IMG/VR virus record: IMGVR_UViG_3300037190_000626
Span: 1 to 64,000 of that record
Length of the DNA: 64,000 nt
Direction: 5' to 3' (one strand)
DNA from: a virus
This document shows positions 15,595-51,234 of this stretch, in pieces (position 1 is the stretch's first letter; every line of letters begins with the position of its first letter). Made by a program: the position numbers and the translations under genes. The notes under the pieces are model-generated. The model ran no database searches. It saw only the letters and a list, made by a program, of their open reading frames with translations, and was not told the DNA's origin.

Positions 15595-17554
15595 GGCTGC
15601 CCGGGGTAAGAGCGGAACCCAGCTCAGGTCCAACTTCCACGTCTTCGTACTGTGACAGATCAGGCCATCTGCCGGTCATATGACATAACATCATTGTTCC
15701 CATATTGACGGCTTGCGCAAAATCGTCGGGACCTGCTGGATCTCTTAGGATCTTGTAGCTATCACGTCCGAATGCGCTTTCGGTTTTATCCTCGATTAGG
15801 TTGAGGAAATCGTGTAGCAGACCTTTTTCTCCGGACCCCTTATAGTCGTATTGGAACGTCCGGATAACTCCTGATTTAATAAACTGGCACGTGTAGTTTA
15901 ATGACCGGGCTTTATCCATAGTAAAGTGATCCCGGGGGTGTAGATCTGTGGCGGGTTTGAAGTTGAGGACGTTTCCTCTCGCTGTTCCGACGTACGCAAT
16001 AGGGATAATATTCTGTTGCGGCAGTCCCGCCTGACTCATGACAGTTTCACGGATGGTTCCTGCTCCCGTGTAATCATGCACTAAGTGTGAGCACTTGAAG
16101 TGATTCATGATACCTAGAATAATCTTAGCCTCCCGGACATGCGCGTGAGGATGCAGGCTTCGATACCCATAGAGAACATCTATTTTCCCGTCCGATGAGT
16201 AGCCCATGACGGCAATGGACGTGTAAGACTGGTAGGCCATATCGGATTTACCTTTACTGACACCTCCTCCTCCCCAATCCACCGAACATACGCGGTAGTT
16301 ATATTCGTCAATGTGCTTAACGGCGTCTTCTAGTTCTCTAGGCCACGGAAGTCTTGCGGCTTTTTTGAGGTCCGTAATGGTGACGAGTTTACTGCCGGAG
16401 TCGTAGGATTCACCGCAGACTTCGTTCATGAAGACATTGACAGGTGTATTGCCTTTACCTTGTTGCTTACCGACTAACACTTCCCATTTCTCTGCGTCGG
16501 CGTAATGCATCGGCATGATGATTTGCGGCACGTGATAACCTGCGAAGGACCAGCGTTTTTCTGGGTACCTGTGTACCCATCTACCTGTTCCTCCTTGATA
16601 GGGTGGTCTAGGGTTTATTGGTTTTCTACACTTAGCACACACTACGCCCGGGCAGTTCTCAGATATATCCTCGTGGTGAGGGCCAATCATCTTAACGAGG
16701 TCGTACTCTATTGAAGGGATATTCCAGTAAGAGCAATGAGGGCATTTGACCATCCATTCGGCCATTGAGCTGTCTAGCCACAATGTTTCGATTGTATTGT
16801 CAAGCGTCTTCGGAGTACCCGCATACTGGAGAAGACCCCAGTCACGAGATGCTGAAATGGTTTCATGAATAACGGGCAAGAAGGAGATGTCCATGTCCTG
16901 TACTTCGTCGATAACGTTTTTGTCGGCGGAGATACCGCGAGTACGCTCGGCGTCCATCGAGGCGAATGAGAAGATCATTTGCGATCGGTTTTTAAAACTA
17001 CGCTGTAGTACAGAGTTAATTGTGGTGGTTCCTGAGAAGAGCTTCATCACAGGAGAAGTTTCAATAAAAGGACGCACGTAGTTCTGGGAGAAACGGCGAA
17101 TCATTTCAAAGAGGGGAGTAATGTAGAGGGTGCTGAAATAGGGAATACAGTTACTAAATAGAACACCCTGAGCTGCAAGTGAAGTAGATTTTGAAACCTG
17201 ACGTCCGGTTTTCAGAAGAGTCTTACGGGGCATTCGTGTTCTAAAAAACGGTGAGAAGGGGAAGTGATCGTGTAAGTGATAAGGTTTTCCCCGAATTTGT
17301 AGCAGTAACGGAAGCAGTGGTTTCAGGGTAAGATGCCCTGTCTTTTTCATTAGATGGCTGGCAGCCAGAAGTCGTTTACTAACTTCGTCTTCGTGGCCTG
17401 TCAGCCGGATATCTTTTAGCAAGTCGGAGGACATCAAGGGACCGATATCAATCATCCCTTCTCTGTCTTCTTGCTGTATAACGTCGCGGGCCGTTCGTCG
17501 CCCCGGTTTACTTTGTTGATCTTCAAGATCGGAAGGAGTTGATGTATGTTTCAT
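15572..17554 (-). CDS. terL: terminase large subunit (GpA-type)
   Basis: KTGRQVSKST, IDEVQD Walker B, AGTPKT coupling motif, CPHC/CAKC zinc, GYHVPQ, NEVCGE, VDWGGG nuclease motif; start likely MKHTST at 17554. Confidence 0.85.
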   Translation of the reverse strand: MKHTSTPSDLEDQQSKPGRRTARDVIQQEDREGMIDIGPLMSSDLLKDIRLTGHEDEVSKRLLAASHLMKKTGHLTLKPLLPLLLQIRGKPYHLHDHFPFSPFFRTRMPRKTLLKTGRQVSKSTSLAAQGVLFSNCIPYFSTLYITPLFEMIRRFSQNYVRPFIETSPVMKLFSGTTTINSVLQRSFKNRSQMIFSFASMDAERTRGISADKNVIDEVQDMDISFLPVIHETISASRDWGLLQYAGTPKTLDNTIETLWLDSSMAEWMVKCPHCSYWNIPSIEYDLVKMIGPHHEDISENCPGVVCAKCRKPINPRPPYQGGTGRWVHRYPEKRWSFAGYHVPQIIMPMHYADAEKWEVLVGKQQGKGNTPVNVFMNEVCGESYDSGSKLVTITDLKKAARLPWPRELEDAVKHIDEYNYRVCSVDWGGGGVSKGKSDMAYQSYTSIAVMGYSSDGKIDVLYGYRSLHPHAHVREAKIILGIMNHFKCSHLVHDYTGAGTIRETVMSQAGLPQQNIIPIAYVGTARGNVLNFKPATDLHPRDHFTMDKARSLNYTCQFIKSGVIRTFQYDYKGSGEKGLLHDFLNLIEDKTESAFGRDSYKILRDPAGPDDFAQAVNMGTMMLCHMTGRWPDLSQYEDVEVGPELGSALTPGSLKDWEDM

Positions 17555-18043
17555 ATAATTGTGACACTTAATAAAAGTGGGAGGTGTATTCGTGATGTTT
17601 TCGCGTACAATAAACTTTCGCAAGTATAATTTCGTCTCTAAAGCATAACGTAGATAGGAGGAGTCATGCCATCTCGAAGCCCTTTTGCGTTCCAACGCAG
17701 AAAACAGCTCAGGTCACTTAACTGGCCCGCTTCAACTTTTTCGCCGGATGAACTGTTAGTTCATAAATATCCTTCAGGTAAGACGCTACAAAAACTTGTG
17801 GCTGCCGAGGGGGATTCACCGCCGTTACGTGCGAAGCTTGTCGAGTGGACACCTCCTGATTCGGAGGAGTAAACACCATGGGAGATTTACTAAAAACATT
17901 CTCCACCATATTTGCAATCGCGGTAATATCGTGTGTAATTGTGGCTGGCGGTTTCCCCATCTTAATCTTTGCGATTTTGGGGTATGCCGCCGGAATGTAT
18001 TTTATAGATGATAAATTGAATAAATGAGAAAAAACGATAACGA

Positions 18044-27532: not shown

Positions 27533-27841
27533 ATGGTAGAACGATTTGGGCCTAGCGTTAGGAGAACACGACGGCCCCCTGACCCTGAGTGGTTAAAGTT
27601 TATGTCCACAGACGAGAAAGAGGCTATGCGGTTAGAGGAGTGGATGCTGACTAGTTTAGCAGACACCGGCCTATCCGTACGTGCTGTCAATTGTCTGGAA
27701 GGAAAAGGTATTTTAACCGTGAGTCAGTTATCTCAGCAAACCAATGACGATTTGTTGGGTATCGTAAACTTTGGGGTACAAACATTGGAACAATGTAAAA
27801 GACTTCTGATGAACATAGGAGTTCCCCACAGTCTAAAGTAA
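27533..27841 (+). CDS. stand-alone RNA polymerase alpha C-terminal-domain-like protein
   Basis: LSVRAVNCLEGKGILTVSQL...DDLLGIVNFGVQTL matches alphaCTD (L.VR..NCL...I..+..L...LL...N.G..SL). Confidence 0.8.
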   Translation: MVERFGPSVRRTRRPPDPEWLKFMSTDEKEAMRLEEWMLTSLADTGLSVRAVNCLEGKGILTVSQLSQQTNDDLLGIVNFGVQTLEQCKRLLMNIGVPHSLK

Positions 27842-27863
27842 GAGAAAATTTGTTTAGCAGATT

Positions 27864-27895
27864 AAGCCTAGGGTGTGTTGCCCTAGGCTTTTTTT
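27864..27895 (+). terminator. intrinsic terminator
   Basis: AAGCCTAGGG-tgtgttg-CCCTAGGCTT perfect 10-bp stem plus T-run. Confidence 0.8.
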
Positions 27896-27924
27896 ATGCA
27901 CATTTGAGACAAGGAAACGAAAAC

Positions 27925-28689
27925 ATGGCTACAGTTACGAAGACTAGCGCAAAGAAGCCTGCGGCTAACGACCCTTTCGCTAAGACGCGAATTGAGATTC
28001 CCGAAGTGAACATGGATATCTTCAAGTGTCGCCTTATTGGCGAGACCCCGTTGGTTATTCATGCGATGGGTGAAAAGAAGCGTAAGGAAATGCGCGATTT
28101 GATGGGCCCCAAGACGGCGGCCTCTAAGGTGCGACCCCCAAAGGATCAGGCGGGTGAGTACTTTGACGCAATGTATATTTTGAACAATCAGATGGACAAG
28201 GACGGTAAACGCCCTAACCCACATCACAACGATCAGGAATACAGCTACGAAGGTATCTTCGTTCCGCTGGCCTTTGAAGACGCTACTGCGGTTCATGGTG
28301 TGCGTGCTTCCGGGTTCCGGCTCGGTATGGTTCGTGCCGCTAAGAGCTGCGGTGCTGTGATGACGGACACTCGCTGTAACATGCGAGTTAGAAGTCCGTT
28401 TGGCTCGTTCGTCCCGTTGAGCTTTGAGACGGTTGTCTCCCGGGAAGACCCCGTGAAGTTGCAGGGCAACAAGACTGACCTGCGTTACCGCCCTGAGTAC
28501 ACGGGCTGGTCAGTTGACATCGAGATTGAGCACATGTCGGACATCATCGGACCAGAGCAGCTGATTCAGTTGCTGCGTATTTCTGGTCGTACGGTTGGTG
28601 TCGGCGAATGGCGTAATGAACGTGGCGGCGAGTTCGGCGCGTTCGATGTGGATCTGGACAGCGTCGAGCTGGAAAAGAAAACTCTGTAA
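27925..28689 (+). CDS. stand-alone Cas7/RAMP-fold RNA-binding protein, putative effector of the adjacent pentamer-repeat arrays (Vipr-like)
   Basis: N-terminal strand CRLIGETPLVIH, central RYRPEY.GWSVDIEIE, C-terminal Gly-rich loop SGRTVGVGEWRNERGGEFGAFDV typical of RAMPs; start at MATVTK behind AAGGA. Confidence 0.75.
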   Translation: MATVTKTSAKKPAANDPFAKTRIEIPEVNMDIFKCRLIGETPLVIHAMGEKKRKEMRDLMGPKTAASKVRPPKDQAGEYFDAMYILNNQMDKDGKRPNPHHNDQEYSYEGIFVPLAFEDATAVHGVRASGFRLGMVRAAKSCGAVMTDTRCNMRVRSPFGSFVPLSFETVVSREDPVKLQGNKTDLRYRPEYTGWSVDIEIEHMSDIIGPEQLIQLLRISGRTVGVGEWRNERGGEFGAFDVDLDSVELEKKTL

Positions 28690-28871
28690 GTAAAGGGGTA
28701 AACTATGGAACAACAAGATCACTGGCAAGACAGTATACGCATCTTGTTCGCTTGCCCTTGGCATAAAAAGATGAGGGCGTGCCAATTGCTCTGCTTGCTT
28801 TTTGTAGTGGAGTGTCGGCTTGGTTTTTATGCTTGGAGCAGAAAACTATAACTCACGTTGAAAATGGTTGT

Positions 28872-28927
28872 CCGGGGGCAGTGGTGTACTAAGTCTTAGA
28901 CTAAGTCCGAAGCTGCCCCCGGTTTTT
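28872..28927 (+). terminator. GC-rich stem-loop with T-tail (terminator or structured RNA element)
   Basis: CCGGGGGCAG (28872-28881) pairs with CTGCCCCCGG (28913-28922), followed by TTTTT. Confidence 0.55.
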
Positions 28928-28947
28928 ATCTAGAAAGAAGGTAAATT

Positions 28948-29490
28948 ATGAGTAGTGGTTACGATGTAACTGTTGAATTTAGTGCCAAGCCGACTCGTCC
29001 TCTTAGCAATAAGGTGGCTGAAGAGGTTGGTCCTGAGATTCACGCATTGATGCAGAAGAACGAGGGGGACGAGCTTACCCCGCATGAGTACTTGGATTGG
29101 GTTAAGGCAAACCCAAACAGTAAGAGTTACAGTCAGTTTGAGTGGGAAGATACAATTGCTGCGAGAAAGTGGCGAGTTCATCAAGCTCGAAATATCATCA
29201 ATTCGATTGATATTAAGGTGATTGACGAACGCGGCGACGCGGTGAGCGTTCCTGCGTTCATTCATATTACGAGGGCAGACTCGGGTGAGGATGCTCGTCA
29301 GTTGTATACTTCTTACGAAAACGTTCTGAACGACGAGGAAAGCTCTTCACAGGTGGTAGCGAGAGCTTGCCGTGATTTCCTGTCGTGGCGTCGTCGTTAC
29401 CTGCTGCTCCGGGGTAAGCTGCCACTGGCAGACATTTACGATGCGACGGACGTTCTGGCTCAAGAGCTGGAAGCACCGGAAGAAGATTAA
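28948..29490 (+). CDS. conserved partner protein between the RAMP gene and the array
   Basis: LTP..Y...K.NP.S..Y..FEW.D..AA..WR..QAR..I.SI motif of a widespread phage hypothetical family; directly upstream of array 1. Confidence 0.7.
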   Translation: MSSGYDVTVEFSAKPTRPLSNKVAEEVGPEIHALMQKNEGDELTPHEYLDWVKANPNSKSYSQFEWEDTIAARKWRVHQARNIINSIDIKVIDERGDAVSVPAFIHITRADSGEDARQLYTSYENVLNDEESSSQVVARACRDFLSWRRRYLLLRGKLPLADIYDATDVLAQELEAPEED

Positions 29491-29568
29491 TTTGGGAGCG
29501 AATAGTTAGTTTGGAAATCTCGTCAAACAGCGTCGTGGGGACGTAACGCTATTCGTGTGACATGGCAT

Positions 29569-30312
29569 GGCAGTCATGGCGAGGTGTGACATGGTGAGCT
29601 GGGGCTTGTTAAGGTCTGGCGGGGTTAGGTCAGGTAAGGCAGTCTTGGCAGGGTAAGGTGTGTTAAGGCACTGCGAGGTGGGCCACGGTTAGGCGAGGAA
29701 TGGCAGTCATGGTTAGGTTTAGCGAGGCGGGGAGAGGTGCGGCAGGGTGCGGCTGGGCAGTCATGGCATGGTGCGGTCGGTACCGGCGGGGTCAGGAGGG
29801 GTAAGGCTCGGAATGGCAGTCAAGGTGAGGTTAGGCATGGTCTGGAACGTTATGCGCTGGTTTGGAGTGGTAAGGCAGTCGTGGCGGGGTGGGGCCGGTC
29901 TGGGATAGGTCCGGTTGGGTGAGGCAGTCGAGGCGGGGTCTGGTAAGTTGCGTTAAGGCGGGGAAAGGTGGGGTGGGTTACGGCAGTCAAGGCTAGGTGT
30001 GGTGTAGTGTGTCGAGGCGGCGAAAGGTCGGGCAGGGCAGTCATGGTGAGGCGGGGTGTTGCTGGGTGTGTCTGGTTCGGGGCTGGCGAGGCAGTCATGG
30101 CAGGGGGTGGTGGGTAGCGGCGGGGTCAGGAGGGGCAAGGCAGTCATGGTGAGGTGTGACACGATGAGGTGTGACATGGTTCGGCAGTCGAGGTCGGGTC
30201 TGGTTCGATCTGGCAAGCCGAGGCGTGGTGCGTTGAGGCAGGCATGGAATGGGTGGCACGGCGCGGTCAGACCACGGTGAGTAATGGCAAGGCTAGGCAG
30301 CCATGGCGCGGA
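29569..30312 (+). repeat. array 1: 13 units of GGCAGTC-NN-(GGY-NN)7-12, putative guide-RNA array
   Basis: Heads at 29569, 29638, 29702, 29756, 29815, 29874, 29923, 29982, 30036, 30090, 30139, 30183, 30237 (GGCAGGC), 30296 (GGCAGCC); unit lengths 69, 64, 54, 59, 59, 49, 59, 54, 54, 49, 44, 54, 59, all 9+5n. Confidence 0.92.
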
Positions 30313-30326
30313 TATTAACTTTACCC

Positions 30327-30698
30327 CTACTTTTCGCAGCTGCTGCAACGAGCACTCCATCTTGATCTCATCTGAGAGCGAACCGGACGTTCTTGTGCCA
30401 TAACACGTAGGGCCCGAAACGGCATAGTTGTAACTCTTACTGTGGTTCTCACAGTGGCTCTAACAAGCGTTCGAACTGGTTGTGCGTCACGGAGCCTCTT
30501 TGCGGCATTACGTAAGGGAGATCGGCAACTGCGGCCCTCTGCTGCGACGACAGGTTGCTTATCGGCTTCTTGCATACTGACAGCACTAACGTATGACACA
30601 GTTGACGCTTTGGATGCGTGATCACAATCTTGTGCGTTAACAGAGCTGAAAGAGAGAACACTTACGACAACGGCTGAAGCTAAACACTTTTTAAACAT
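30327..30698 (-). CDS. small secreted, Arg-rich protein lying between the two arrays
   Basis: Signal-peptide-like MFKKCLASAVVVSVLSFSSVNA; AGGA SD on the minus strand; PVRTLVRATVRTTVR low-complexity tail. Confidence 0.6.
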   Translation of the reverse strand: MFKKCLASAVVVSVLSFSSVNAQDCDHASKASTVSYVSAVSMQEADKQPVVAAEGRSCRSPLRNAAKRLRDAQPVRTLVRATVRTTVRVTTMPFRALRVMAQERPVRSQMRSRWSARCSSCEK

Positions 30699-30831
30699 GT
30701 CTTTTCCTGTTATTTAAGTGGTAATACGTAATGCTCCTACAAGGGAGCGACAAAATTGTAAATCTTTAATTGCGACACGGCATCCCCAAACCAGAGGTAT
30801 TTTTAAAAATACTCCAAAAAAGAAGTGACGA

Positions 30832-31017
30832 GGCAGTCATGGTTAGGTGCGTACTGGTGAGGTGGGTTCAGGTCAGGCAGGGTGTGGTATGGCAGTCAAG
30901 GCGAGGTATGGTCGGGTGAGACATGGTCGGGCTGGGCGAGGCGAGGAATGGCAGTCAGGGCAAGGTCTGGTTGGGTTTGATTCGGAGGGGCGAGGAGTGG
31001 CAGTCGTGGTGCGGTTG
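30832..31017 (+). repeat. array 2: 3 full units plus a partial unit of GGCAGTC-NN-(GGY-NN)n
   Basis: Heads at 30832, 30891, 30950, 30999; lengths 59, 59, 49; same 5-nt phase as array 1. Confidence 0.9.
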
Positions 31018-31021
31018 CTAG

Positions 31022-31387
31022 ACTTAAGCTTTTGACTTAAGCTTGTGAGTCCTTACGTTAAGTAATATATAAAACAAGGAGGAGTGATGAGACCTGAGTC
31101 ATTTAGGTCAAAACCATTTATTGATTGTTCTAAGTGGGAATGTTGGAATTGCGGTGCAATTCACCATTACATACCTGCTGATTGTCAAAAATGTCGGGTG
31201 AAATTTGTCTCCCGACCTCACTGGGGTGTTCCCGAGAAAAATTCGGAGATCTCTGAAGAGAAGAAAACATCAATATCTTTTGATGAGTTAATATCTGATT
31301 TACTGAAAGGACCAGAAGAAGAGTAACTGCTTGATGCCCTGTATATATTATCTATAGGACTCACAAGCTTAAGTTAAAAGCTTAAGT
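31022..31387. repeat. 32-bp inverted repeat pair flanking a small ORF
   Basis: ACTTAAGCTTTTGACTTAAGCTTGTGAGTCCT (31022-31053) vs AGGACTCACAAGCTTAAGTTAAAAGCTTAAGT (31356-31387), 31/32 complementary. Confidence 0.85.
31084..31326 (+). CDS. small zinc-ribbon protein
   Basis: WECWNCG...DCQKC; AAGGAGG SD. Confidence 0.55.
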   Translation: MMRPESFRSKPFIDCSKWECWNCGAIHHYIPADCQKCRVKFVSRPHWGVPEKNSEISEEKKTSISFDELISDLLKGPEEE

Positions 31388-31412
31388 AACTCTAAATTCT
31401 GGGATTGACGCT

Positions 31413-31802
31413 ATGGGAAAAAGTTACAGGTGGGCAGATGTGGCGGGACAGTTTGTTACAGAACTGTATGCCCGGGATGGTGAGCTATATGACGCATATT
31501 CCGATAAGAATCTGGATGTGCAGATTGAAGCGGCACTGGAGCATGGTGAGAGCTACGAGCTTACGATTGAGTTTCGTAGCAGCGGGTACTATGACCCCGG
31601 AGTCCTATCAGGGCCCCCGGAGAAGTGTTACCCGCCTGAAGGTGATGATGATCGTGAAATGGAAGGCGTGGCATTATCCGCAGAAAACAACAAGGAAGTA
31701 GAGCTGACGCATGCTGAACAGGAAGAAATGTTTGAGATTTACAGGGGCGGGATAGAGGATGTAGAACTTGAAACGCAAGACGACGACGGGGGTAGATACT
31801 AA
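31413..31802 (+). CDS. acidic hypothetical phage protein
   Basis: SSGYYDPG..SGPPE.CYPPEG.D.RE motif. Confidence 0.55.
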   Translation: MGKSYRWADVAGQFVTELYARDGELYDAYSDKNLDVQIEAALEHGESYELTIEFRSSGYYDPGVLSGPPEKCYPPEGDDDREMEGVALSAENNKEVELTHAEQEEMFEIYRGGIEDVELETQDDDGGRY

Positions 31803-31803
31803 T

Positions 31804-32703
31804 ATGCCTCCGGATTTTGCGATAACGATGACGACCTCTAAACCCTCCTTCCAACGCATTGCGGTGGCTAAGGCGTTACAGGAATTAGCGCCTAAGGTTT
31901 ATATAAGCTCTACTAAAAACAGGGATATGGTTCCCTTTATTCGGCAAGTGCAGAAACGGTGGAGACATTTCACTGTGACGCTCAAGGAAGCTGATTACGC
32001 ACCGTTTGACACTAAGAAGTTCGGGTACGCACGTAATTGTGTTCCTGTGCTGGTATCTAACCGGTGTGATGCCGGGGAAATTGTACCGTGTCAAATTCCG
32101 GTGTGTCCGTTTTGCTGGAGCAGACGTGTAGTAATAAAGGCGTGTAAGTTGCTTGAGGGGCACAAAAACGACATTGCGAATTGGAAGTGGGGGCACGTGG
32201 ATTTTGGGGGTGCCTTTAATGACGTGTCGGCATCTGTGAGAGCGGCACATCGGGCTATACCTGACTACAGCGGGGTGATTGCGTACACGTACTTGTGGGG
32301 CAATTCAGATTCTGAGACTCCCAGCTTTAGTGGCCGGGTAAAGTATCTTGCTGTCGGTGAGGCTGACCATCCTATCTCGCGAGGGGTACATGAAGTACTT
32401 AGTCCGTTCACTAAGGCCAAAGATGCCCCGCGAGCAATTGGACAGGCCTTTGCTTATCCGGTGCATGTTATGCCGCCGGTAGCCTCTAAGGAGCAGGTAG
32501 ATGCGAGTGTGTATTGGTGGAACCGATTACGGAAGGCAAGGTTTCGTGCGTTTAGAACGAGCGGTATTTTTTATCGTATGACGAAGCCAGCAGCGGGAAA
32601 GAGTAAGAGCAAGGAGGCCAAGTTTAATGATATTTACAAGAGACTTGAAGTACTTGAAAACAAGTTAGGTGTAGCGCCTAACGGGAGGAAAGAAAATGAG
32701 TGA
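31804..32703 (+). CDS. hypothetical protein with C-x-C...CPFC motif
   Basis: About 300 aa ORF containing PCQIPVCPFCW. Confidence 0.5.
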   Translation: MPPDFAITMTTSKPSFQRIAVAKALQELAPKVYISSTKNRDMVPFIRQVQKRWRHFTVTLKEADYAPFDTKKFGYARNCVPVLVSNRCDAGEIVPCQIPVCPFCWSRRVVIKACKLLEGHKNDIANWKWGHVDFGGAFNDVSASVRAAHRAIPDYSGVIAYTYLWGNSDSETPSFSGRVKYLAVGEADHPISRGVHEVLSPFTKAKDAPRAIGQAFAYPVHVMPPVASKEQVDASVYWWNRLRKARFRAFRTSGIFYRMTKPAAGKSKSKEAKFNDIYKRLEVLENKLGVAPNGRKENE

Positions 32704-33253
32704 GCAAGAGATAACATCTCCTCCATTTGCGACGCAATTGTGTACACCTTTAGTGATACACAGACAGTTGCAACTGTTAGAGGGGTGGGTAGATTCTCTA
32801 CGTTATTGGGCGAACGAAGAATCTCGTAGATTTGAAGCGCCAGAAGATCCGTTTATTCCAGACACGAGACCAGTGCCGGTTGATCCTGCGATATTGTCCA
32901 ACATAGCGATTCCAAGTTTGTTTCGCACGTGGATGACGCTGCGGGCTATTCGTGAGCGCTGGGACTGGATTTACCGGAATTACGAGGAGAATTGGGATTG
33001 TGATAAGTGTATTTTTAGCCGGATTATGTGTGTGAAGATGGGGGCACTTATCCTCCTAAACGCATTCCTTGATCCGGAAACCCACGAAGCGAAGCAGGAA
33101 GAAGAGCGTAAGGCCCAGCAAGAGCAGCTGGCTGAGACGCTTAAACAAATTGGTATTCCTGACACGCTTCTACAAGCAATGGGAGTAATATCCGGAGATG
33201 ACGATAAAGAAGAAATCGACTTCGACAAGCTGTTCCACCCCGACGATAACTGA
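32696..33253 (+). CDS. hypothetical protein
   Basis: 185 aa ORF, GGAGG SD, overlap with the previous gene. Confidence 0.5.
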   Translation: MSEQEITSPPFATQLCTPLVIHRQLQLLEGWVDSLRYWANEESRRFEAPEDPFIPDTRPVPVDPAILSNIAIPSLFRTWMTLRAIRERWDWIYRNYEENWDCDKCIFSRIMCVKMGALILLNAFLDPETHEAKQEEERKAQQEQLAETLKQIGIPDTLLQAMGVISGDDDKEEIDFDKLFHPDDN

Positions 33254-39179: not shown

Positions 39180-41108
39180 ATGCGGATTAATACGGTTCGC
39201 CTTAAGAACTTTGGGCCGTACGAGGACGCGACATTTAACCTAAATCATGGATTGATTGGAATAGTAGGTCCCAATGGATGTGGGAAGTCGACCCTTGTAA
39301 ACGGCATTTACGCCTGTCTGACGAATGATTTCTCTCGCTTTCACGGTGTGAAGGCGGACATTATTCGTGACACGGCTCCGGCAGATGCTGCCAGCTTCAT
39401 TGAAGTGAATGGTGAGCATCAATCTGTAGAGTTCATACTGCGTCGTAATCTTCGTCCTAATAGTGCGAAGTTGATTATCGCAGGCGAACGTGAATACAAG
39501 AAAGCCGTAGATATCGAGGAACGCTTGGTCAAGGATATCGGACTACACAAGAGATTGATTGACACATATGTGTTTGTGAATCAGTGGAGTATGTTCGAGT
39601 TCCTGTCTCAGACAGACAGCAAGCGTGCTGAGTCTTTCCGCCACCTGTGCGGTACGGAGAAGTCAGCCGATATATATGATGCCTGTACGAAGTTCATGGC
39701 AAGTAGTGAATTGAATGTGGAGATCGTTGATAACAGCGATACTCTGGTAACTAATATCGCAGCTCTATCGAAGGAGATTGCGGAGGAAGAAGAAAAGCTC
39801 AAGGGGTTACAGGACCGACGATTGTCGGAGAATAGCCGTAACGGTGCTTTAGCAGTGGTTCAGAATCATGAGCGTCGAACGTCTCTGGTAAAGAAAATTG
39901 CTGAGTCTGAAGAGAATATACTGAGTTTCGAGAGTAGCTGGCATCTGCGAGAAGAGGAGCGCGTTGTCAGCGATAAAGCAATGTCTGCTGCCTGTCTGCG
40001 GACGGCTCAGACTCTAAAGAGTGTGGGTGCGGCGAATGCCTCCAAGGAGTTGTGGAATGTGTATAACGCTGCTGTGGCTGCGTGTGTGGCGTCTGTTCAT
40101 CGCTTAGATACACACGAAAGCAAGAAGCCGGTTTTAGATTTGTCGCCCGAGGTTTGTCCCACGTGTTTGCAGGAGGTGAAGGGGGAGCATTTGGAAGCTG
40201 CACTTCGCAAGGACTTCGAGGAGAAGCTCGCCTCTTATGAGAAGACTCATTTGATTCTGACAGAGCGGTGCACTCCCCCCGACTCCCCGACGTGTCCTTC
40301 CGAGGAGGAACTGGACATGATGCTGGAGTCGGCAAGTTACGACGAGAGAGTGCTCAAGGAGTGTGAGGCAGACTACAAGGAAAAGATGGATGCTGTTTCT
40401 TCGGTGTATTCGCGGTGGGAGCTAGAAAAGGAAGTAGAAGCTGCCGCTCACTTAGAACTCGAACAACTTCTTCCGACAACGGATGATCTTTATGACCGTG
40501 CGGTGGCTCGTCTTGCAGAGCACGAAGGACTGGCTACGGAGATAAGCGGCATAGAGGGACGCATCAGCGCTAAGCAGGAGTCCCTCAGTGACTACCAGTC
40601 ACTCTTAGACGAGCTTCGTGAGAAGATTGAGCGTCATAAGACTATGGGTGCGTTACGGGAGGTTGTGGGCGATGTCCGGGACGTGTTCCACTGGCAGAAC
40701 CTACCGAAGAAGGTAGCGCAGGCAAATCTGATGGGTATTACTGGAGAGATCAACGAGGCTTTAGAGATTTTCGGCAGCCCTTTCTGGGTGGAGGCGGATG
40801 TAAACTTGTCATTCAAGGTGCATTTTCCTAATTCGCCTGCCCGGTCTGCCGGGTCTTTAAGTGGCGGCCAAAAGGCAGTTCTAGCTATCTGCTTTAGAGT
40901 AGCGGTTAATCGTTTGTTTGGTATGGATACTGGCATGATGTTTCTCGACGAACCTACTGCTGGTTTGGATAATGATAACGTCGAATATTTCCAAGGAGCG
41001 TTATCTGTTCTGGCGGCTGAGGTGCGTGATAAGCGACAATTAGTAATAATTACGCACGCTGCGGAATTGCGAGGAACGTTTGATCAGGTAATTGAGATGG
41101 GTGTATGA
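39180..41108 (+). CDS. Rad50/SbcC-like SMC ATPase
   Basis: GPNGCGKST, zinc hook CPTC, signature LSGGQ, Walker B FLDEPTAGLD, IITH. Confidence 0.92.
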   Translation: MRINTVRLKNFGPYEDATFNLNHGLIGIVGPNGCGKSTLVNGIYACLTNDFSRFHGVKADIIRDTAPADAASFIEVNGEHQSVEFILRRNLRPNSAKLIIAGEREYKKAVDIEERLVKDIGLHKRLIDTYVFVNQWSMFEFLSQTDSKRAESFRHLCGTEKSADIYDACTKFMASSELNVEIVDNSDTLVTNIAALSKEIAEEEEKLKGLQDRRLSENSRNGALAVVQNHERRTSLVKKIAESEENILSFESSWHLREEERVVSDKAMSAACLRTAQTLKSVGAANASKELWNVYNAAVAACVASVHRLDTHESKKPVLDLSPEVCPTCLQEVKGEHLEAALRKDFEEKLASYEKTHLILTERCTPPDSPTCPSEEELDMMLESASYDERVLKECEADYKEKMDAVSSVYSRWELEKEVEAAAHLELEQLLPTTDDLYDRAVARLAEHEGLATEISGIEGRISAKQESLSDYQSLLDELREKIERHKTMGALREVVGDVRDVFHWQNLPKKVAQANLMGITGEINEALEIFGSPFWVEADVNLSFKVHFPNSPARSAGSLSGGQKAVLAICFRVAVNRLFGMDTGMMFLDEPTAGLDNDNVEYFQGALSVLAAEVRDKRQLVIITHAAELRGTFDQVIEMGV

Positions 41109-42028
41109 ATGATGACCTCAGGGTACATACCGACGCCGATGGCATCGTGTGGTGCGGACAACACGGAGTAGGGGCATATTGCACAGGCGATTCTCCGGAT
41201 GAGTTTGTGACAAAGAATGTGTTCAAGACTGCGCCAGTTGTCCGTGCCATGGGCTCTTCGGAGAATAGCAAGTTGCTGTTGGCTATGTATGAACGACATA
41301 AAAAAGCACCTGTGCTGGCGAAGCGGCAGGTATTGTTGGCGAGTCCTATGATTTGTCATACGGAGAAAGTACGCGCCGATCCGGAAGAAGTTCTTTACCG
41401 TCTATGGCAGTCGGACACTACGGCGAGGGTTTCGGCAAATTGGCACCTTATGCGGTCTGTAGATTTTAATGCGTATTTGCTTCACCTTGCGGTGCTAGAC
41501 AGTAAATACGCTGAAGGCGTCACCGACAAAGCAAAGATAATTTTTCAGTATCACCCCGCGTTTAATGCGATTTCATTCTTTGAGAATGTGGATGTAGATT
41601 CTGTAGTTTCTTTGTTGTCGTCAATTTTAGACCCCCGTTGGTATGTACACGCAGAGCGACCAAATAGGTTGTCAAAGTTGTTATGTTTCTTAGGGCTGAC
41701 GATTAGAAATTTTGATGAGTCTTCTGCGACCTTGGGAGGGTACAATTATGATAGAGCTTGTATGGTACATTCTAGCTGGAGCGGATTAGACAGACGTCCA
41801 GTGGATTACACGTCCCCGCGTAGTTTTTTGTGGCGGATTTATCGTCATCACGGAGGGGGCGATAAGGGCAGCTTACGGGCTTCTGAGGCGTTTATGCGTT
41901 TTGTTACTTTACACTGGCTTCAAGGGTTGAGTGGTTCTTCACGTAGACTATTTGACCCTTCGCTGTTTTTTAAGACGAATGATGAGGTCGTGGCGTATAA
42001 CACGCACATGACCGGTATACGGAGTTAG
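41105..42028 (+). CDS. hypothetical protein with IS110-transposase/Nop-like C-terminal helical region
   Basis: SLLSSILDPRWY...RLSKLLCFLGL resembles the IS110 'll.ei.D..RF.....l..y.GL' motif; no catalytic motifs recognised. Confidence 0.4.
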   Translation: MNDDLRVHTDADGIVWCGQHGVGAYCTGDSPDEFVTKNVFKTAPVVRAMGSSENSKLLLAMYERHKKAPVLAKRQVLLASPMICHTEKVRADPEEVLYRLWQSDTTARVSANWHLMRSVDFNAYLLHLAVLDSKYAEGVTDKAKIIFQYHPAFNAISFFENVDVDSVVSLLSSILDPRWYVHAERPNRLSKLLCFLGLTIRNFDESSATLGGYNYDRACMVHSSWSGLDRRPVDYTSPRSFLWRIYRHHGGGDKGSLRASEAFMRFVTLHWLQGLSGSSRRLFDPSLFFKTNDEVVAYNTHMTGIRS

Positions 42029-42033
42029 CTTTA

Positions 42034-42609
42034 ATGACTATGCGGGAGTTGACAGTGCGTATTCGTTTTGTGTCGCCTTCTCTGGGAAACCAGAAAATGG
42101 GAGACGGCTCAGGACGATTTGTTTTTCAAAGAAGCCCCACTGGCGGGATTATATTTTTACCCAGCTGGCACAACGCGAATATGCGTATGGCGGCCCAACT
42201 TTTAAATAGACACCAAAAAGCAGTACAGGACATACACTGGGATATAAATGTGGACGGACTGCTACACAGCAATCCGTGGCATAAGAATCATTACCGTTCC
42301 GCCAAAAGTCAGAAGCTGCGGTATTCTCTTCATGAGGCGTTTAACGTAGGACAAATCATAGGTTTAAACTGCATCGTACCTTCGGTGATAAAAGAAGAAG
42401 ACTTTTGGCAGTTGATGGGTAAAGCAGGCCAGTACAAGGGCCTCTCTCCGTGGAAGCCGGGAGAGCATGGATTTTATGAAGTGGTCTCTATTCGACCACG
42501 ACGAATGAATCGTTCTACGGATGACGATGCGCAATTGTCAGTTACGGATGACCAAGAAGCTGGTACTGCGAATACTAAAATAGAAAGAGCCGATCAGTCT
42601 GATGACTGA
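42034..42609 (+). CDS. second RAMP/Cas7-like protein
   Basis: ELTVRIRFVSPSLG first strand, HEAF..G..I, C-terminal AGQYKGLSPWKPGEHGFYEV Gly-rich loop. Confidence 0.5.
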   Translation: MTMRELTVRIRFVSPSLGNQKMGDGSGRFVFQRSPTGGIIFLPSWHNANMRMAAQLLNRHQKAVQDIHWDINVDGLLHSNPWHKNHYRSAKSQKLRYSLHEAFNVGQIIGLNCIVPSVIKEEDFWQLMGKAGQYKGLSPWKPGEHGFYEVVSIRPRRMNRSTDDDAQLSVTDDQEAGTANTKIERADQSDD

Positions 42610-42731
42610 CCGGCTCTCTCGTGGCGGATGGTTGGTTCCGGTGTGTTCTAGGGAGGTGGCAATTCCCCGAGGGACCCAACTACTTATATATTTTAAGCAT
42701 AAAAGAGAGGGTGTGCAACATAAGGTATAGT

Positions 42732-44240
42732 ATGTCAAGATCAAAAAATGAAAAAATTGTGACGCTATTGAAGCATGGAAATAGGCTATTGGTAGAGCCT
42801 ACCACCCCAAAAATACTGGATATTTTGTCATCAGAGCTTACTTTTACAGAGACAAGCATGGTGCGGGGATGGGAAGCTAAACAACGTAGAAGAGAAGGTA
42901 GGTCCGTTATGGACTATATCGATCACCCGTTGTTTGTATTGGACCATAAGTCGAGAATTGCCTGTCCTTATGGGTTTTGGAAGCGTATTAAGGTGGCTTT
43001 GTCTGGTGCGGGTTATTCCGTGCGATTCAAAGATTTGGCTCCGCACAGTAACCCGGCGGTGTTTGAGCCTTACTGGCAAAACATTAAAGGTATTGAACTT
43101 CGGGAAGGGCAGGACGAGTTTTTATTACAAGTTTTATCTAATCGGTGTGGACGCTTTGATTGTCCTCCGGGTTACGGCAAGTCTTTTTTAATTGGACTTG
43201 TAGGTTGCTTGTTACCTAAGGCTCGTATCGATGTAGTTACTACCCGGGTCTCTGTGCTGCGTGATCGTATATTTCCTGAGCTTTCTCAGTTGTGCGGTGA
43301 CGTGGGTATTGTGGGTGGCGGTAAGAGACGTATCGGCAGGCGTATTATGTGCTACACGGCGGCGTCTATGCACCACGCCACTGGCGACGCAGACATTCTG
43401 TTTGGAGACGAATGCCACGAGCTGGGAGCTGACAGGGCATCTCAGAATCTCATGCGATGGGATACGAGTAGAAACTTCGGGTTGTCTGCCAGCCACGATA
43501 AGCGAATCGACGGAAAGGATCTTCGAGTTGAGGGTATCTTTGGACCCGTGGTGCACAAGGTAGATTACGAGACTGCGAAACAGAACGGACTGGTCCTACC
43601 TATTCATGTTAACTGGTCTAACGTTGTCATGGATTACGATCCTTGCGGCGGCAGACACGATGTGGAGAAGAAGCGGCGAGGCATATGGTGCAACCAAGTT
43701 CGAAATAGTATCATCGCAGAGGACGCGCAAAGATACTCGGACGATCAGCAAGTTTTAATCACTTGTGAGACTATCCAGCACGCAATGAACTTGAAATCCC
43801 TGTTGCCGGAGTTTACTCTTGTATACAGGGAGGGATCGTTAACCTATGCAGATAGAGCTCGTTACGCACGTCAAGGACTTATCGAGCCGGACGAGCGCTT
43901 AATGGATCTTAAGCGTAGAATTTGGCTTACCAAAAGTTTTGAGCGTGGTGAGCTTAAGAAAGTTATTTGTACAACTGTGTGGAACGTGGGTGTATCTTTT
44001 AACTCTCTTGAAGTGCTTATCCGAGCTGACGCTGGCGGTAGTCCTATTAACGATGTACAGATTCCCGGCAGGGTTTCTCGTATAAGTGAAGGGAAGGAAG
44101 TCGGTACTGTGCACGATTATCTGGACCAGTTTAATTCTGGTTTCAAACGTCGAGCCAAGAACCGCAGTAAGACGTATAAAGAGAATAACTGGGAGCAAAG
44201 CTTCCCCCGAGAAGGTTTAATTGAGGAGTACTTAGCATGA
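42732..44240 (+). CDS. superfamily 2 DNA helicase (UvsW-like)
   Basis: CPPGYGKS, DECH, GLSAS, TTVWNVGVS, QIPGRVSR. Confidence 0.88.
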   Translation: MSRSKNEKIVTLLKHGNRLLVEPTTPKILDILSSELTFTETSMVRGWEAKQRRREGRSVMDYIDHPLFVLDHKSRIACPYGFWKRIKVALSGAGYSVRFKDLAPHSNPAVFEPYWQNIKGIELREGQDEFLLQVLSNRCGRFDCPPGYGKSFLIGLVGCLLPKARIDVVTTRVSVLRDRIFPELSQLCGDVGIVGGGKRRIGRRIMCYTAASMHHATGDADILFGDECHELGADRASQNLMRWDTSRNFGLSASHDKRIDGKDLRVEGIFGPVVHKVDYETAKQNGLVLPIHVNWSNVVMDYDPCGGRHDVEKKRRGIWCNQVRNSIIAEDAQRYSDDQQVLITCETIQHAMNLKSLLPEFTLVYREGSLTYADRARYARQGLIEPDERLMDLKRRIWLTKSFERGELKKVICTTVWNVGVSFNSLEVLIRADAGGSPINDVQIPGRVSRISEGKEVGTVHDYLDQFNSGFKRRAKNRSKTYKENNWEQSFPREGLIEEYLA

Positions 44241-45073
44241 TCAATGCTCGTACACACCGAAAGCAGCCAATGCCGGGGACGGAGTCCAAGTCAGTTCGAT
44301 TGTCTAATCAACTGGCGCCAGCCGAGGAGCGGCTAAGCGACGACTTAAAGAAAACGTACACGCTGGAACGTCGTCTTTTGGACGAGCGGTGTGGTCGTAG
44401 TCGTGGTCGTCCTTACAGTCCGTCCCCACGATACGATGGGGAGGATACAAGGGCAACGATTGAGGATATTCAACGAAAGCCGGAGAACACGTGGGTGAAA
44501 GTGGTGCGGGAACTTTGGCCCGCGAATGTTCACCCGTGTATTTATGTCCGGACTATTTTTCGCGGTATAGGCGGGACTGCTATGGCACCGCCGTATCCTC
44601 ATCAACTTTTGAGTAAGAAGTGGAAAGAATTTTTCCACGCGGAGAGCGCCAGATTAATTGATGAAATTCCTGCGGGGTTTTCCCGGCAATCAGAATTTTC
44701 TGCCTCCTCCATCTTGCGAAGTCAGCGTATATTGGGGTATGACTTACAACAGTCTGTGTACTATTTGTTGACGGACCGGCTGGCTCCTTTGACTTCGCTT
44801 TACCGCCATAGTTTAGCGAAGTCAATGTTACGGGAGCCAAACTTGTCGAAGATTGATCGTCCTGCATTGTTCGAGGGTGTGGCAGCCAGAACAGAGCGGC
44901 AGGCAGTCATTCAGTACACGCAATTCAGTGCTCAATACGCAGAGCACTGGAGGTTGATTCTTCCGGATGGCTTCCGGGAGACGGCGGAAAGGATTTACGG
45001 CGGATTATTGACGGTGTGTTTAAATGAGGGAGAGTTCGATGTCAAAACAGCGGTCACGGTTGACCGCTCGTGA
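44237..45073 (+). CDS. hypothetical replication-module protein
   Basis: 278 aa ORF overlapping both helicase genes. Confidence 0.55.
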   Translation: MINARTHRKQPMPGTESKSVRLSNQLAPAEERLSDDLKKTYTLERRLLDERCGRSRGRPYSPSPRYDGEDTRATIEDIQRKPENTWVKVVRELWPANVHPCIYVRTIFRGIGGTAMAPPYPHQLLSKKWKEFFHAESARLIDEIPAGFSRQSEFSASSILRSQRILGYDLQQSVYYLLTDRLAPLTSLYRHSLAKSMLREPNLSKIDRPALFEGVAARTERQAVIQYTQFSAQYAEHWRLILPDGFRETAERIYGGLLTVCLNEGEFDVKTAVTVDRS

Positions 45074-51226: not shown

Positions 51227-51234
51227 CAGGGAGG

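What the first reader, a model, noticed from the sequence alone, without database searches (positions are those of the whole stretch)
29815..29873. Guide unit decoding to the type I restriction-modification HsdM motif KDYILTMLFVK
Seen: NN string AAnGAnTAnATnCTnACnATnCTnTTnGTnAA. Established: the HsdM N-terminal domain carries the conserved (Y)KDY(I/V)LxxLFxKY segment. Inference: the phage targets the 5' part of host hsdM, probably to silence the hsdMSR operon. That would make it an RNA-programmed anti-restriction mechanism.
Basis: partly seen in the sequence, partly recalled or inferred. Interest (0 to 1): 0.88.

Follow-up and report, generated by a model that had tools for sequence, protein, structure and literature searches.

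The report
Phage VIPR guide aimed at hsdM
This 59-base stretch is one guide-RNA unit of a phage VIPR system (a CRISPR-like RNA-guided DNA silencer first described in 2026), and its code spells a conserved motif at the start of the methylase gene of bacterial type I restriction systems, so the phage may switch off a defence operon by RNA guidance.

Summary
Window 29815-29873 is one unit (GGCAGTC head plus 11 NN dinucleotides separated by GGY-type triplets) of an 18-head array.

All 120 lie in frame at Y-KDYILTMLFVK-Y near the N-terminus of HsdM genes.

The system is not new. The upstream 254-aa gene is a Vipr protein: its profile hits SUSP1 Vipr in the PDB at E 4e-14, and its fold is Cas7-like. 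The array matches the GGY/NN vrRNAs of VIPR systems in three 2026 Doudna-lab preprints, which already state the one-base skip falling on the wobble position.

The target may be new. 'hsd', 'methyl' and 'anti-defen' do not occur in the main texts of those preprints; supplements were closed.

Other guides of the same array match a phage-like contig, at a DnaB-type helicase (22/22) and a DUF3310 gene (22/26). The array is therefore mixed.

Anti-restriction is plausible but unproven. The host is unknown, there is no RNA evidence, and silencing would not remove enzyme already made.

This scan has noted VIPR guides against hsdM before on other DNA.

The parts
27925..28689 (+). vipr gene. It encodes a Cas7-like RAMP protein of 254 aa from ATG 27925. 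The mechanical ORF starts at TTG 27850, inside a terminator-like hairpin at 27864-27890.
   Evidence: A profile of 39 homologues (A1) hits PDB 36pp_D 'SUSP1 Vipr protein' at E 4.1e-14. SUSP1 H17, R138 and D177-W178-R179 align with window H71, R214 and E253-W254-R255 (numbering of the 279-aa ORF). The AF2 model has pLDDT 80. Its top Foldseek hits are chains of type III Csm/Cmr, type VII and Cas7-11 complexes, with E down to 3.4e-6. The gene also matches PHROG 4652, unknown function. The terminator scan is.
28948..29490 (+). Candidate vap (Vipr-accessory protein), 180 aa, with the motif FEW.D..AA..(W/Y)R..QAR.
   Evidence: BLASTP homologues were found in 48 of the 98 related IMG/VR loci, always on the array strand and next to vipr or the array. 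It matches PHROG 15946, unknown function. The AF2 model has pLDDT 90.7. Residues ~20-125 resemble winged-helix domains at VIA Z 5.6-7.5, which is only middling. Foldseek found nothing below E 1e-3. There is no significant similarity to SUSP1 vap1.
29569..30312 (+). vrRNA array block 1. It has 14 GGCAGTC-type heads, and each unit is head + (NN GGY)n + NN.
   Evidence: All 13 spacings in this block equal 5k+4.
29815..29873 (+). The guide unit of the finding. Its 11 NN dinucleotides specify hsdM codons K-D-Y-I-L-T-M-L-F-V-K with the wobble base skipped.
29756..29814 (+). Neighbouring guide unit. Its 11 NN match, 22 of 22 bases and in frame, the Walker A stretch IMARPGHGKSI of a DnaB_C helicase on the phage-like metagenome contig L228.
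   Evidence: (0 of 200 shuffles reach the score).
29569..29637 (+). Guide unit with 13 NN. It matches 22 of 26 bases in frame at IDAIEGLNLGFHM of a DUF3310 gene on the same contig L228.
   Evidence: (0 of 200 shuffles reach the score).
30090..30138 (+). Guide unit with 9 NN. It matches 14 of 18 bases at the same Walker A site of L228. This is a weak match.
   Evidence: 2 of 200 shuffles reach it.
30832..31017 (+). vrRNA array block 2. It has 4 heads with the same grammar.
   Evidence: Spacings are 59, 59 and 49.

Best explanation
The stretch is one vrRNA (guide) unit of a VIPR system carried by a large marine phage.

How it works, with shown and inferred steps marked:
- Inferred from co-orientation: the array is transcribed from the + strand together with vipr and a vap-like gene.
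- Inferred from SUSP1 structures and conserved contact residues: Vipr protomers polymerise along the RNA, one per pentamer. They bury each GGY triplet and present the NN dinucleotides.
- Shown here at sequence level: the 11 NN of this unit equal positions 1-2 of eleven consecutive hsdM codons (KDYILTMLFVK, about residue 30).
- Inferred: the NN would pair with the template strand of hsdM while each wobble base is skipped, forming the gapped R-loop described for VIPR.
- Inferred from type II VIPR reporter and phage assays: the bound filament blocks transcription near the start of hsdM, and hence of the hsdS/hsdR genes behind it.

The most likely purpose is counter-defence, that is, shutting down expression of a type I restriction-modification operon in the infected cell. 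Whether that operon sits on the host chromosome or on a resident island is unresolved.

My odds for each layer:
- It is a VIPR guide: 0.95.
- hsdM is its specified target: 0.9.
- It represses hsdM in vivo: about 0.6.
- This gives the phage an anti-restriction benefit: about 0.4.

The overall confidence given (0.55) is for the whole chain up to repression of a type I R-M operon in the infected cell.
For: Array grammar and spread:
- The same GGCAGTC-headed arrays occur in 98 IMG/VR stretches.
- There, 360 of 448 neighbouring head pairs are spaced 5k+4.
- 1929 of 3274 separating triplets are GGY and 2964 start with G.

Proteins:
- vipr homologues occur in 60 of the 98 loci and vap-like homologues in 48 of 98, all on the array strand.
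- The Vipr profile hits SUSP1 Vipr at E 4.1e-14, with the GGY-contacting residues conserved.
- The fold is Cas7-like.

Target:
- There are at least 120 exact matches in genomes.
- 120 of 120 are in frame in the HsdM motif.
- 10 of 10 sampled proteins carry HsdM_N plus N6_Mtase.
- The 120 sites are 99 distinct 33-mers. Wobble positions vary (0.95-1.76 bits, except the Met codon) while the NN positions are fixed.
- The site sits at a median of residue 30 of 509.
- Downstream genes: 34 of 72 are Methylase_S, 2 of 72 are HsdR, and others are RhuM, Fic, Abi, Shedu and CBASS-type genes. hsdM-hsdS-hsdR orders are seen in L174 and L145.
- In a sample of one phylum, 15 of 401 genomes match with at most 2 mismatches, against 1 of 401 for the backwards control.
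- The pattern has 0 exact matches in 2.9 million viral contigs.

Self-avoidance and the skip rule:
- No self-match rises above shuffled controls in the 78-kb phage record.
- The one-base skip rule holds for a second guide of this array, 22/22 in frame in a DnaB_C gene.

Published mechanism:
- 10.64898/2026.04.26.720920 (Results and Discussion read).
- 10.64898/2026.04.26.720927 (Results part 1 read).
Against: - No expression or processing data exist for this array.
- The experimentally studied VIPR is type II (SUSP1), whose vrRNAs each have a promoter region and a 3' pseudoknot tail. Here the units abut with only GGCAGTC between them. The vap-like protein is not similar to vap1.
- The host is unknown, so no genome is shown to hold both the phage's receptor and this hsdM allele.
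- A transcription block cannot remove R-M enzyme present when the phage DNA enters, so the benefit in a lytic cycle is unclear.
- The guide covers only one HsdM subfamily. Of 151 sampled genomes of one phylum, 105 carry HsdM_N, but only 6 of those 151 matched the guide with at most 2 mismatches.
- Two or three other guides of the array point at a phage-like contig. That fits the published inter-phage role rather than anti-defence.
- A marine metagenome contig carries a variant array in which 29789-29980, including this unit, is replaced by 30 other letters. The guide is therefore not fixed in the population.
- An earlier, similar claim of this scan about methylase-directed VIPR guides was later marked 'part of it fell'.
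Confidence: 0.55

Rival explanations
1. The molecular mechanism is the same, but the hsdM gene it is aimed at is cargo of a competing mobile element (satellite, island, plasmid or prophage). The guide would then serve inter-element competition, the role already published for VIPR, and not relief of host restriction.
For: - Published natural targets are satellites, prophages and other VIPRs (10.64898/2026.04.26.720920 Results; 10.64898/2026.10.15.759431 sections 8, 9).
- A Methods passage of the October preprint says that 52% of F5 satellites carry a DNA-modification module.
- Other guides of this array hit a phage-like replication module.
- The gene following the matched hsdM genes is often of an island or mobile-element type: RhuM in 12 of 72, Fic in 5 of 72, Bro-N in 3 of 72, KilA-N in 1 of 72.
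Against: - The pattern has 0 exact matches in 2.9 million viral contigs, against at least 120 in cellular genomes.
- No integrase or satellite hallmark was examined or seen next to the targets in the four loci read in detail.
- No other guide of the array matched the 8-kb hsdM loci.
Confidence: 0.3
2. The unit is a real vrRNA, but the hsdM match has no present function. It could be a relic of a past host, or a guide kept for another, unrecognised target.
For: - The unit is replaced in a variant array.
- The host is unknown.
- Most other units found no exact target in the collections scanned.
Against: A 22 of 22 match to an invariant motif, with at least 120 exact genomic matches against about 0.07 expected, is hard to keep without selection. 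Arrays of this kind turn over quickly: the 356 unique units from 98 loci are almost all different.
Confidence: 0.1
3. The RNA acts as an antisense regulator on hsdM mRNA rather than on DNA.
For: The structural preprint reports that VIPR complexes can pair with ssRNA targets, though the filaments are less complete (10.64898/2026.04.26.720927, Results part 1).
Against: The NN string on the + strand, the strand of vipr and vap, has the sense of the hsdM coding strand. A + strand transcript therefore cannot pair with the mRNA. Only a - strand transcript could, and nothing suggests one.
Confidence: 0.03
4. It is not a guide at all. It would be a periodic protein-binding DNA or RNA element (packaging site, iterons, a TRAP/CsrA-like sponge or a G-quadruplex tract) whose spacers are free to vary.
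For: My first reading was based on the 5-nt periodicity and the G-rich strand bias.
Against: Free-varying spacers would not spell two different conserved protein motifs exactly in the wobble-skipping register. The adjacent gene is a Vipr homologue.
Confidence: 0.02

Closest known systems
VIPR (Viral Interference Programmable Repeat) systems. The type II reference is Escherichia phage SUSP1, plus a Pseudomonas fulva prophage (bioRxiv 10.64898/2026.04.26.720920, 10.64898/2026.04.26.720927, 10.64898/2026.10.15.759431).
   Same: - A Vipr RAMP protein with the conserved GGY-contacting residues.
- A small accessory gene next to it.
- Guides built of YNNGG pentamers (11 NN here; 9-16 in the preprint).
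- Target matching with a one-base skip that falls on codon wobble positions.
- No self-targeting.
- Carried by a phage.
   Different: - SUSP1 vrRNAs are separate ~100-nt genes, each with upstream sequence and a 3' pseudoknot tail. Here 18 units abut and are separated only by GGCAGTC.
- The accessory protein shows no significant similarity to SUSP1 vap1.
- Vipr is only distantly related. A tblastn with the single protein found Gordonia, Mycobacterium and Pseudomonas phages but not SUSP1.
- The predicted target of this unit is a type I R-M methylase gene, a target class not mentioned in the main texts.
VIPR 'staggered vrRNA arrays' (legend of fig. S18 in 10.64898/2026.04.26.720920, seen as a passage).
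   Same: Guides lie directly one after another, so that the end of one marks the start of the next. This is what the GGCAGTC-delimited array looks like.
   Different: I could not see the figure or the type assignment. Whether the published staggered arrays use the GGCAGTC delimiter is unknown to me, and processing sites are not mapped here.
Class 1 CRISPR backbone subunits (Cas7, i.e. Csm3/Cmr4-type RAMPs).
   Same: The fold is shared: Foldseek finds type III, type VII and Cas7-11 complexes with E down to 3.4e-6. Both polymerise on a guide RNA with periodic base flipping.
   Different: - There is no repeat-spacer array.
- The guide is gapped (2 paired, 3 buried) rather than 5 paired and 1 flipped.
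- The target is read 2 of every 3 bases.
- I did not search the window for cas1, cas2 or other cas genes.
Protein anti-restriction factors of phages and plasmids (Ocr of T7, ArdA, DarA/B of P1). These are recalled from my own knowledge, not from a call.
   Same: They would serve the same end, escape from type I restriction-modification.
   Different: Those act on the enzyme itself (DNA mimicry or protection of incoming DNA) at once on entry. This would act on the gene through RNA-guided DNA binding, and could only stop new synthesis.
Phage-borne CRISPR-Cas of Vibrio phage ICP1 directed at the host's PLE island. This is recalled from my own knowledge, not from a call.
   Same: A phage uses programmable RNA guides against an anti-phage element resident in the cell.
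   Different: ICP1 uses a complete type I-F CRISPR-Cas that destroys the target. VIPR of this kind has no nuclease in the locus and is expected to silence.

Membership tests
VIPR system | Vipr protein: a minimal RAMP with RRM core, glycine-rich loop and thumb, whose residues hold G1, G2 and Y3 of each GGY. | tested here: met
   The profile A1 hits SUSP1 Vipr (PDB 36pp_D) at E 4.1e-14. H17, R138 and D177-W178-R179 align with H71, R214 and E253-W254-R255. In the family alignment R214 and R255 are invariant and W254 is conserved in at least 90% of sequences. The model's fold matches Cas7-type chains.
VIPR system | vrRNA made of tandem YNNGG pentamers with conserved GGY and hypervariable NN, 9-16 repeats per guide. 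| tested here: met
   The unit has 11 NN and 10 triplets, of which 6 are GGY, 2 are GGA, 1 is GTT and 1 is GCG. Across 356 unique units, 59% of triplets are GGY and 91% start with G, while all 16 possible NN occur at 3.5-10% each. The preprint notes frequent internal degeneracy (Methods section 20).
VIPR system | Natural targets match under the one-base skip rule (NNx), with the skipped base mostly at codon wobble positions. | tested here: met
   The hsdM guide is 22/22 with at least 120 in-frame matches. The DnaB_C guide is 22/22 in frame and the DUF3310 guide is 22/26 in frame. Other skip lengths were not tested.
VIPR system | An accessory vap gene next to vipr. | tested here: inconclusive
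   A conserved 150-230-aa gene accompanies vipr and the array in 48 of 98 loci. Its winged-helix-like fold has only middling Z of 5.6-7.5. It shows no significant similarity to SUSP1 vap1. The sequences of vap2-6 were not available to me.
VIPR system | No self-targeting at 80% NN match or above. | tested here: met
   The best self-matches of 16 units in the 78-kb record, with the arrays masked, never exceed the best of 20 shuffles. The highest is 13 of 16 for an 8-NN unit, where the shuffle maximum is 14.
VIPR system | vrRNAs are expressed, co-purify with Vipr and repress transcription at matching dsDNA. | not testable with these tools
   This needs small-RNA sequencing, pull-down and reporter assays.
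VIPR type II (SUSP1 clade) | Each vrRNA ends in an invariant 3' tail with a pseudoknot, and vap1 is the accessory gene. | tested here: not met
   SUSP1 intergenic regions show repeat tracts followed by ~35-nt tails and spacer sequence. The window's units are separated by GGCAGTC only. The vap1 comparison is not significant. So this is a VIPR, but not type II. The type was not assigned because the figures and data files were not visible.
Target: type I R-M methyltransferase HsdM | HsdM_N plus N6_Mtase domains, with hsdS and hsdR neighbours. | tested here: met
   10 of 10 sampled proteins carry PF12161 and PF02384. The next gene is Methylase_S in 34 of 72 loci and HsdR in 2 of 72. L174 reads hsdM-hsdS-hsdR, and L145 reads hsdM-nuclease-hsdS-Schlafen-hsdR.
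CRISPR-Cas | A repeat-spacer array with cas1/cas2 adaptation genes. | tested here: not met
   There is no repeat-spacer alternation: the units are 5-nt periodic throughout. Pfam and PHROGs on 10 neighbouring ORFs found no Cas family. The whole window was not scanned for cas genes.

The most novel reading that the evidence does not exclude
Phage VIPR arrays are mixed panels. They carry guides against rival phages and also guides against host immunity genes.

This unit would be an RNA-programmed anti-restriction guide. Because it reads only codon positions 1-2 of an invariant HsdM motif, one guide would recognise that HsdM subfamily whatever its codon usage. Exact sites were found in genomes of many phyla, as 99 distinct sequences among 120.

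That would extend VIPR from inter-element warfare, the only role in the main texts of the three preprints, to direct counter-defence against the cell.
Probability: 0.35. Interest if true: 0.75.

Novelty: new member of a known kind. Interest (0 to 1): 0.5.

Why it matters
The grammar, the wobble-skipping code and the protein are already in print as VIPR (2026 preprints), so the general mechanism is not a discovery.

What this locus adds:
- An independent, very clean confirmation of the one-base-skip rule in a VIPR whose architecture differs from the tested type II. It has a tail-less, GGCAGTC-delimited array, and the same kind of array occurs in 98 IMG/VR stretches.
- A predicted target class, the first gene of type I restriction-modification operons, that the main texts of the three VIPR preprints do not mention.

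If the guide works, phages would have a programmable, mutation-tolerant way to shut down defence operons. It would also give a simple test system: a 33-bp site in front of a reporter.

The result also shows a limit on host prediction. Guide matches of this kind cannot name a host, because the code is blind to codon usage.

Tried and rejected
First ideas from the 5-nt rhythm alone were a TRAP- or CsrA-like RNA sponge, a packaging site or iterons, or a two-tier G-quadruplex tract. I dropped them once the gapped pattern hit hsdM exactly and the neighbouring gene proved to be a Vipr.

Searches that found nothing useful:
- Megablast of 27800-32800 against phage records: no match.
- The search for related loci with the 180-aa protein in viral contigs: 9 pattern hits, none confirmed.
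- Rfam on 29300-31300: only a sub-threshold chance hit (HOTTIP_1, 18.6 bits against a 50-bit gathering score).
- Recurrent NN k-mers across 356 units: only near-identical units of related phages recur, with no shared motif.

Scan of the 356 unique units against the 120 hsdM loci (0.86 Mb) at up to 20% dinucleotide mismatches: 7 units had hits against 5 for reversed controls. Only the window's unit is real, with 120 exact hits. Only units between two exact heads spaced 5k+4 were included.

Exact-pattern scans with 0 matches:
- Unit 30832 ('DGQHR' reading) in metagenome contigs.
- Unit 29982 ('KYVVVEGNRR' reading) in viral contigs.
- Unit 30036 (recombinase-like reading) in viral contigs.
- Unit 30183 in viral contigs.
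- Unit 29569 in viral contigs.
- Unit 29756 in viral contigs.
- The hsdM unit in viral contigs.

These scans are exact-match only, whereas the preprint accepts targets at 80% NN match or above. A blank therefore does not show that those guides lack targets.

Accessory protein:
- Foldseek of the 180-aa model: nothing below E 1e-3.
- Profile against SUSP1 vap1: not significant.
- PDB sequence search: nothing relevant.
- BLASTP of the 180-aa protein against ORF 31084-31326, prompted by a 24-nt direct repeat at their 3' ends: no alignment.

Sequencing runs:
- No RNA holder is listed among the 9 runs that hold part of the stretch, so nothing can be said on expression.
- In the laid contigs the array is fragmented. 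No listed piece spans 29815-29873 completely, so the unit's presence in other samples is neither shown nor excluded.

Host identification was not achieved. Exact hsdM hits span many phyla.

The VIPR type (I-VII) was not assigned. Data S3 of the first preprint and the supplementary tables of the October preprint list predicted targets. They may contain methylase or R-M hits that I could not see.
Full report
**The observation**

It has a GGCAGTC head followed by eleven dinucleotides: AA GA TA AT CT AC AT CT TT GT AA. Ten triplets separate them: GGT GGT GGC GGT GGA GTT GCG GGT GGA GGT.

It is one unit of an array of 18 heads, all on the + strand. There are 14 heads at 29569-30296 and 4 at 30832-30999. 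The two blocks are split by a - strand ORF. The whole window holds 20 matches to the head pattern, and 0 of 100 shuffles reached 20. All 16 of 16 head-to-head spacings are 5k+4.

**The family of arrays**

A pattern made of two heads and the first pentamers found 98 stretches in IMG/VR viral contigs.
- In these, 360 of 448 neighbouring head pairs are spaced 5k+4, where chance would give a fifth.
- 1929 of 3274 separating triplets are GGY.
- All sixteen possible dinucleotides occur at 3.5-10% each.

Two proteins travel with the arrays, always on the same strand. Homologues of the ORF at 27850/27925-28689 occur in 60 of the 98 loci. Homologues of the 180-aa ORF at 28948-29490 occur in 48 of 98. 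These are single-query BLASTP results, and many loci are cut short.

**Identity**

A profile of 39 homologues of the first protein hits one PDB entry, 36pp 'SUSP1 Vipr protein', at E 4.1e-14. In the alignment, the residues that the structural preprint names as holding the GGY bases (H17, R138, D177, W178, R179) fall on H71, R214, E253, W254 and R255 of the window protein. In the family alignment R214 and R255 are invariant and W254 is conserved in at least 90% of sequences.

The AlphaFold model has pLDDT 80. Foldseek matches it to chains of type III Csm/Cmr, type VII and Cas7-11 complexes.

A strong terminator-like hairpin at 27864-27890 lies inside the mechanical ORF, so the gene most likely starts at ATG 27925 (M26 is near-invariant).

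The 180-aa protein models confidently at pLDDT 90.7. It gives only middling winged-helix-like matches and is not detectably related to SUSP1 vap1.

**Literature**

Three preprints describe VIPR systems.
- 10.64898/2026.04.26.720920: I read the abstract, Results, Discussion, Methods sections 20 and 27, and passages with supplementary figure legends.
- 10.64898/2026.04.26.720927: I read the abstract and Results part 1.
- 10.64898/2026.10.15.759431: I read the abstract, sections 8, 9 and 25, and passages.

They report the following.
- A small RAMP protein (Vipr), accessory vap genes, and vrRNAs of 9-16 YNNGG repeats.
- NN dinucleotides pair with dsDNA while every third target base is skipped.
- The skipped base usually falls on the codon wobble position.
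- Either strand can be targeted, and there is no PAM.
- The outcome is transcriptional repression.
- There are seven types, including 'staggered' arrays.

**The target**

For random sequence I expect about 0.07.

All 120 of 120 matches lie in frame in the motif D[TSE][FL]RG..D...Y-KDYILTMLFVK-Y[ILV][ST]D. In 117 the second codon is D and in 3 it is E. In 118 the seventh is M and in 2 it is I.

Ten of ten sampled proteins carry HsdM_N and N6_Mtase.

The 120 sites are 99 distinct sequences, with wobble positions varying freely. This is exactly what a wobble-blind guide tolerates.

The 80 titles listed include:
- Actinomycetota (Arthrobacter, Pseudonocardiaceae)
- Bacteroidota (Mesonia, Sinomicrobium, Flagellimonas, Hymenobacter, Prevotella)
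- Desulfobacterota
- Bacillota
- Campylobacterota
- Pseudomonadota (Photobacterium)
- Verrucomicrobiota and relatives
- Chloroflexota
- Nitrospirota
- Acidobacteriota

The match therefore cannot name the host.

**Position and context of the target**

The site sits at a median of residue 30 of 509, and never beyond 17% of the ORF, in the 98 ORFs of at least 400 aa.

A downstream ORF could be called in 72 loci. The other 48 of the 120 were left out because the hsdM ORF was cut short or no ORF of at least 150 aa was in reach. Among the 72, the next gene is:
- Methylase_S in 34
- RhuM in 12
- Fic in 5
- Bro-N in 3
- HsdR in 2
- single cases of Abi_2, Shedu, patatin and CBASS-type genes

L174 reads hsdM-hsdS-hsdR. 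L145 reads hsdM-nuclease-hsdS-Schlafen-hsdR. L112 reads hsdM-hsdS-Piwi protein. A block at codon 30 of hsdM would thus sit at the head of the operon.

**Breadth**

The guide is broad across phyla but thin within them.
- In 401 genomes sampled from the phylum of Sinomicrobium, 15 match with at most 2 mismatches: 1 exact (the centre genome itself), 4 with one mismatch and 10 with two. One of the two-mismatch hits contains a stop codon and is probably chance. The backwards control matched in 1 genome.
- Of the first 151 of those genomes, 105 carry HsdM_N, but only 6 of the 151 were among the pattern matches.
- In 2.9 million viral contigs the pattern has no exact match.

**The rest of the array**

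One other guide found an exact target. Unit 29756 matches 22/22, in frame, the Walker A stretch IMARPGHGKSI of a DnaB_C helicase on a 2.9-kb metagenome contig.

On the same contig:
- Unit 29569 matches 22/26 in frame in a DUF3310 gene (0 of 200 shuffles reach this).
- Unit 30090 matches 14/18 at the same Walker A site (2 of 200 shuffles reach this).

The contig also encodes a phage-type PDDEXK endonuclease, so it looks like a rival phage's replication module. This fits the published role of VIPR in inter-phage conflict.

No guide matches the phage's own 78-kb record above shuffled controls.

**Mechanism**

Shown here:
- the grammar
- the Vipr homology
- the exact wobble-skipping match to hsdM

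Inferred from the type II experiments and structures:
- Vipr filaments form on the RNA.
- The NN pair with the template strand. The + strand RNA has the sense of the coding strand, so it cannot pair with the mRNA.
- A gapped R-loop forms and transcription is blocked.

Open:
- whether this tail-less array is processed at GGCAGTC
- whether the guide is expressed
- who owns the targeted hsdM
- what the phage gains

**Weak points of the anti-restriction reading**

- Silencing cannot remove enzyme present at entry.
- The phage looks like a large virulent type. It encodes terminase, DNA polymerase, helicases and a UvsX-like recombinase. No integrase was found among the ORFs tested.
- The guide covers a small share of HsdM genes.
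- A contig from another marine sample carries a variant array in which 29789-29980, including this unit, is replaced by 30 other letters of the same grammar.
- The phage occurs in marine and seawater metagenomes of five studies.

**Novelty**

Only 8 papers of the library hold 'vrRNA'. Three are the VIPR preprints and one is a language-model preprint with a single mention. In the main texts of the three, 'hsd', 'methyl' and 'anti-defen' do not occur, and 'restriction' occurs only in other senses. Their supplements were closed and may list such targets.

Within this scan, VIPR has been noted many times: 876 notes in at least 508 genomes. VIPR guides against hsdM were reported on at least nine other genomes. 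I did not test those notes, and they are not independent evidence.

**Verdict**

This is a genuine new member of a known system, and its well-supported predicted target class is not in the main texts. Interest is moderate.

Noticed in passing
window 30327-30698 (- strand): A 123-aa ORF on the opposite strand splits the array into two blocks. It has no Pfam or PHROG family. A metagenome contig (run X2) joins 30048 to 30938 with 34 other letters, so a variant array lacks this ORF.
   Followed up: partly
window 31020-31052 and 31350-31387: A ~31-nt inverted repeat (GACTTAAGCTT... and its complement) flanks a small Cys-rich 80-aa ORF (31084-31326) just after the last array unit. It may be a small inserted element or a pair of hairpins.
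   Followed up: no
window 27533-27841 (+): A stand-alone RNA polymerase alpha C-terminal domain gene lies here (Pfam PF03118, E 2.7e-13). It is followed by a 12-bp-stem terminator-like hairpin at 27864-27890, just upstream of vipr.
   Followed up: no
L228 (metagenome contig Ga0114908_1016806) 2-2101: This is a phage-like replication module with a DnaB_C helicase, a PDDEXK endonuclease and DUF3310. Two or three guides of the window's array match it. It is probably a rival phage of the same habitat.
   Followed up: partly
window 29483-30997, seen in runs X2 and X5: Contigs from other marine samples show unit-level array variants. One skips exactly unit 29569-29637 (X5). One replaces 29789-29980 (X2). 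One goes back from 30997 to 29814 (X2). This suggests cassette-like gain, loss and shuffling of guides.
   Followed up: partly
L112 1499-6603: In Sinomicrobium oceani the matched hsdM-hsdS pair is followed directly by a 763-aa Piwi-domain (prokaryotic Argonaute-like) gene.
   Followed up: no
L227 (Escherichia phage SUSP1) 27500-29511: The published reference locus can be read in the record as two 'hypothetical proteins', agp039 (Vipr) and agp038. They are flanked by GGT-periodic tracts, each ending in a ~35-nt tail.
   Followed up: partly
phage records H1-H19: Vipr homologues at 24-26% identity are annotated as hypothetical proteins in Gordonia phages (UmaThurman, Pipp, ODay, Ecliptus), Mycobacterium phages (Saal, Brocalys and others) and Pseudomonas phage LESphi2.
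   Followed up: no
window 15572-17695 (-), 39180-55180 (+): The window belongs to a large phage. It encodes a large terminase on the - strand, an SbcC-like protein, two helicases, a DnaB-like helicase, a DNA polymerase and a UvsX-like recombinase. CheckV completeness of the 78-kb record is 35%.
   Followed up: no
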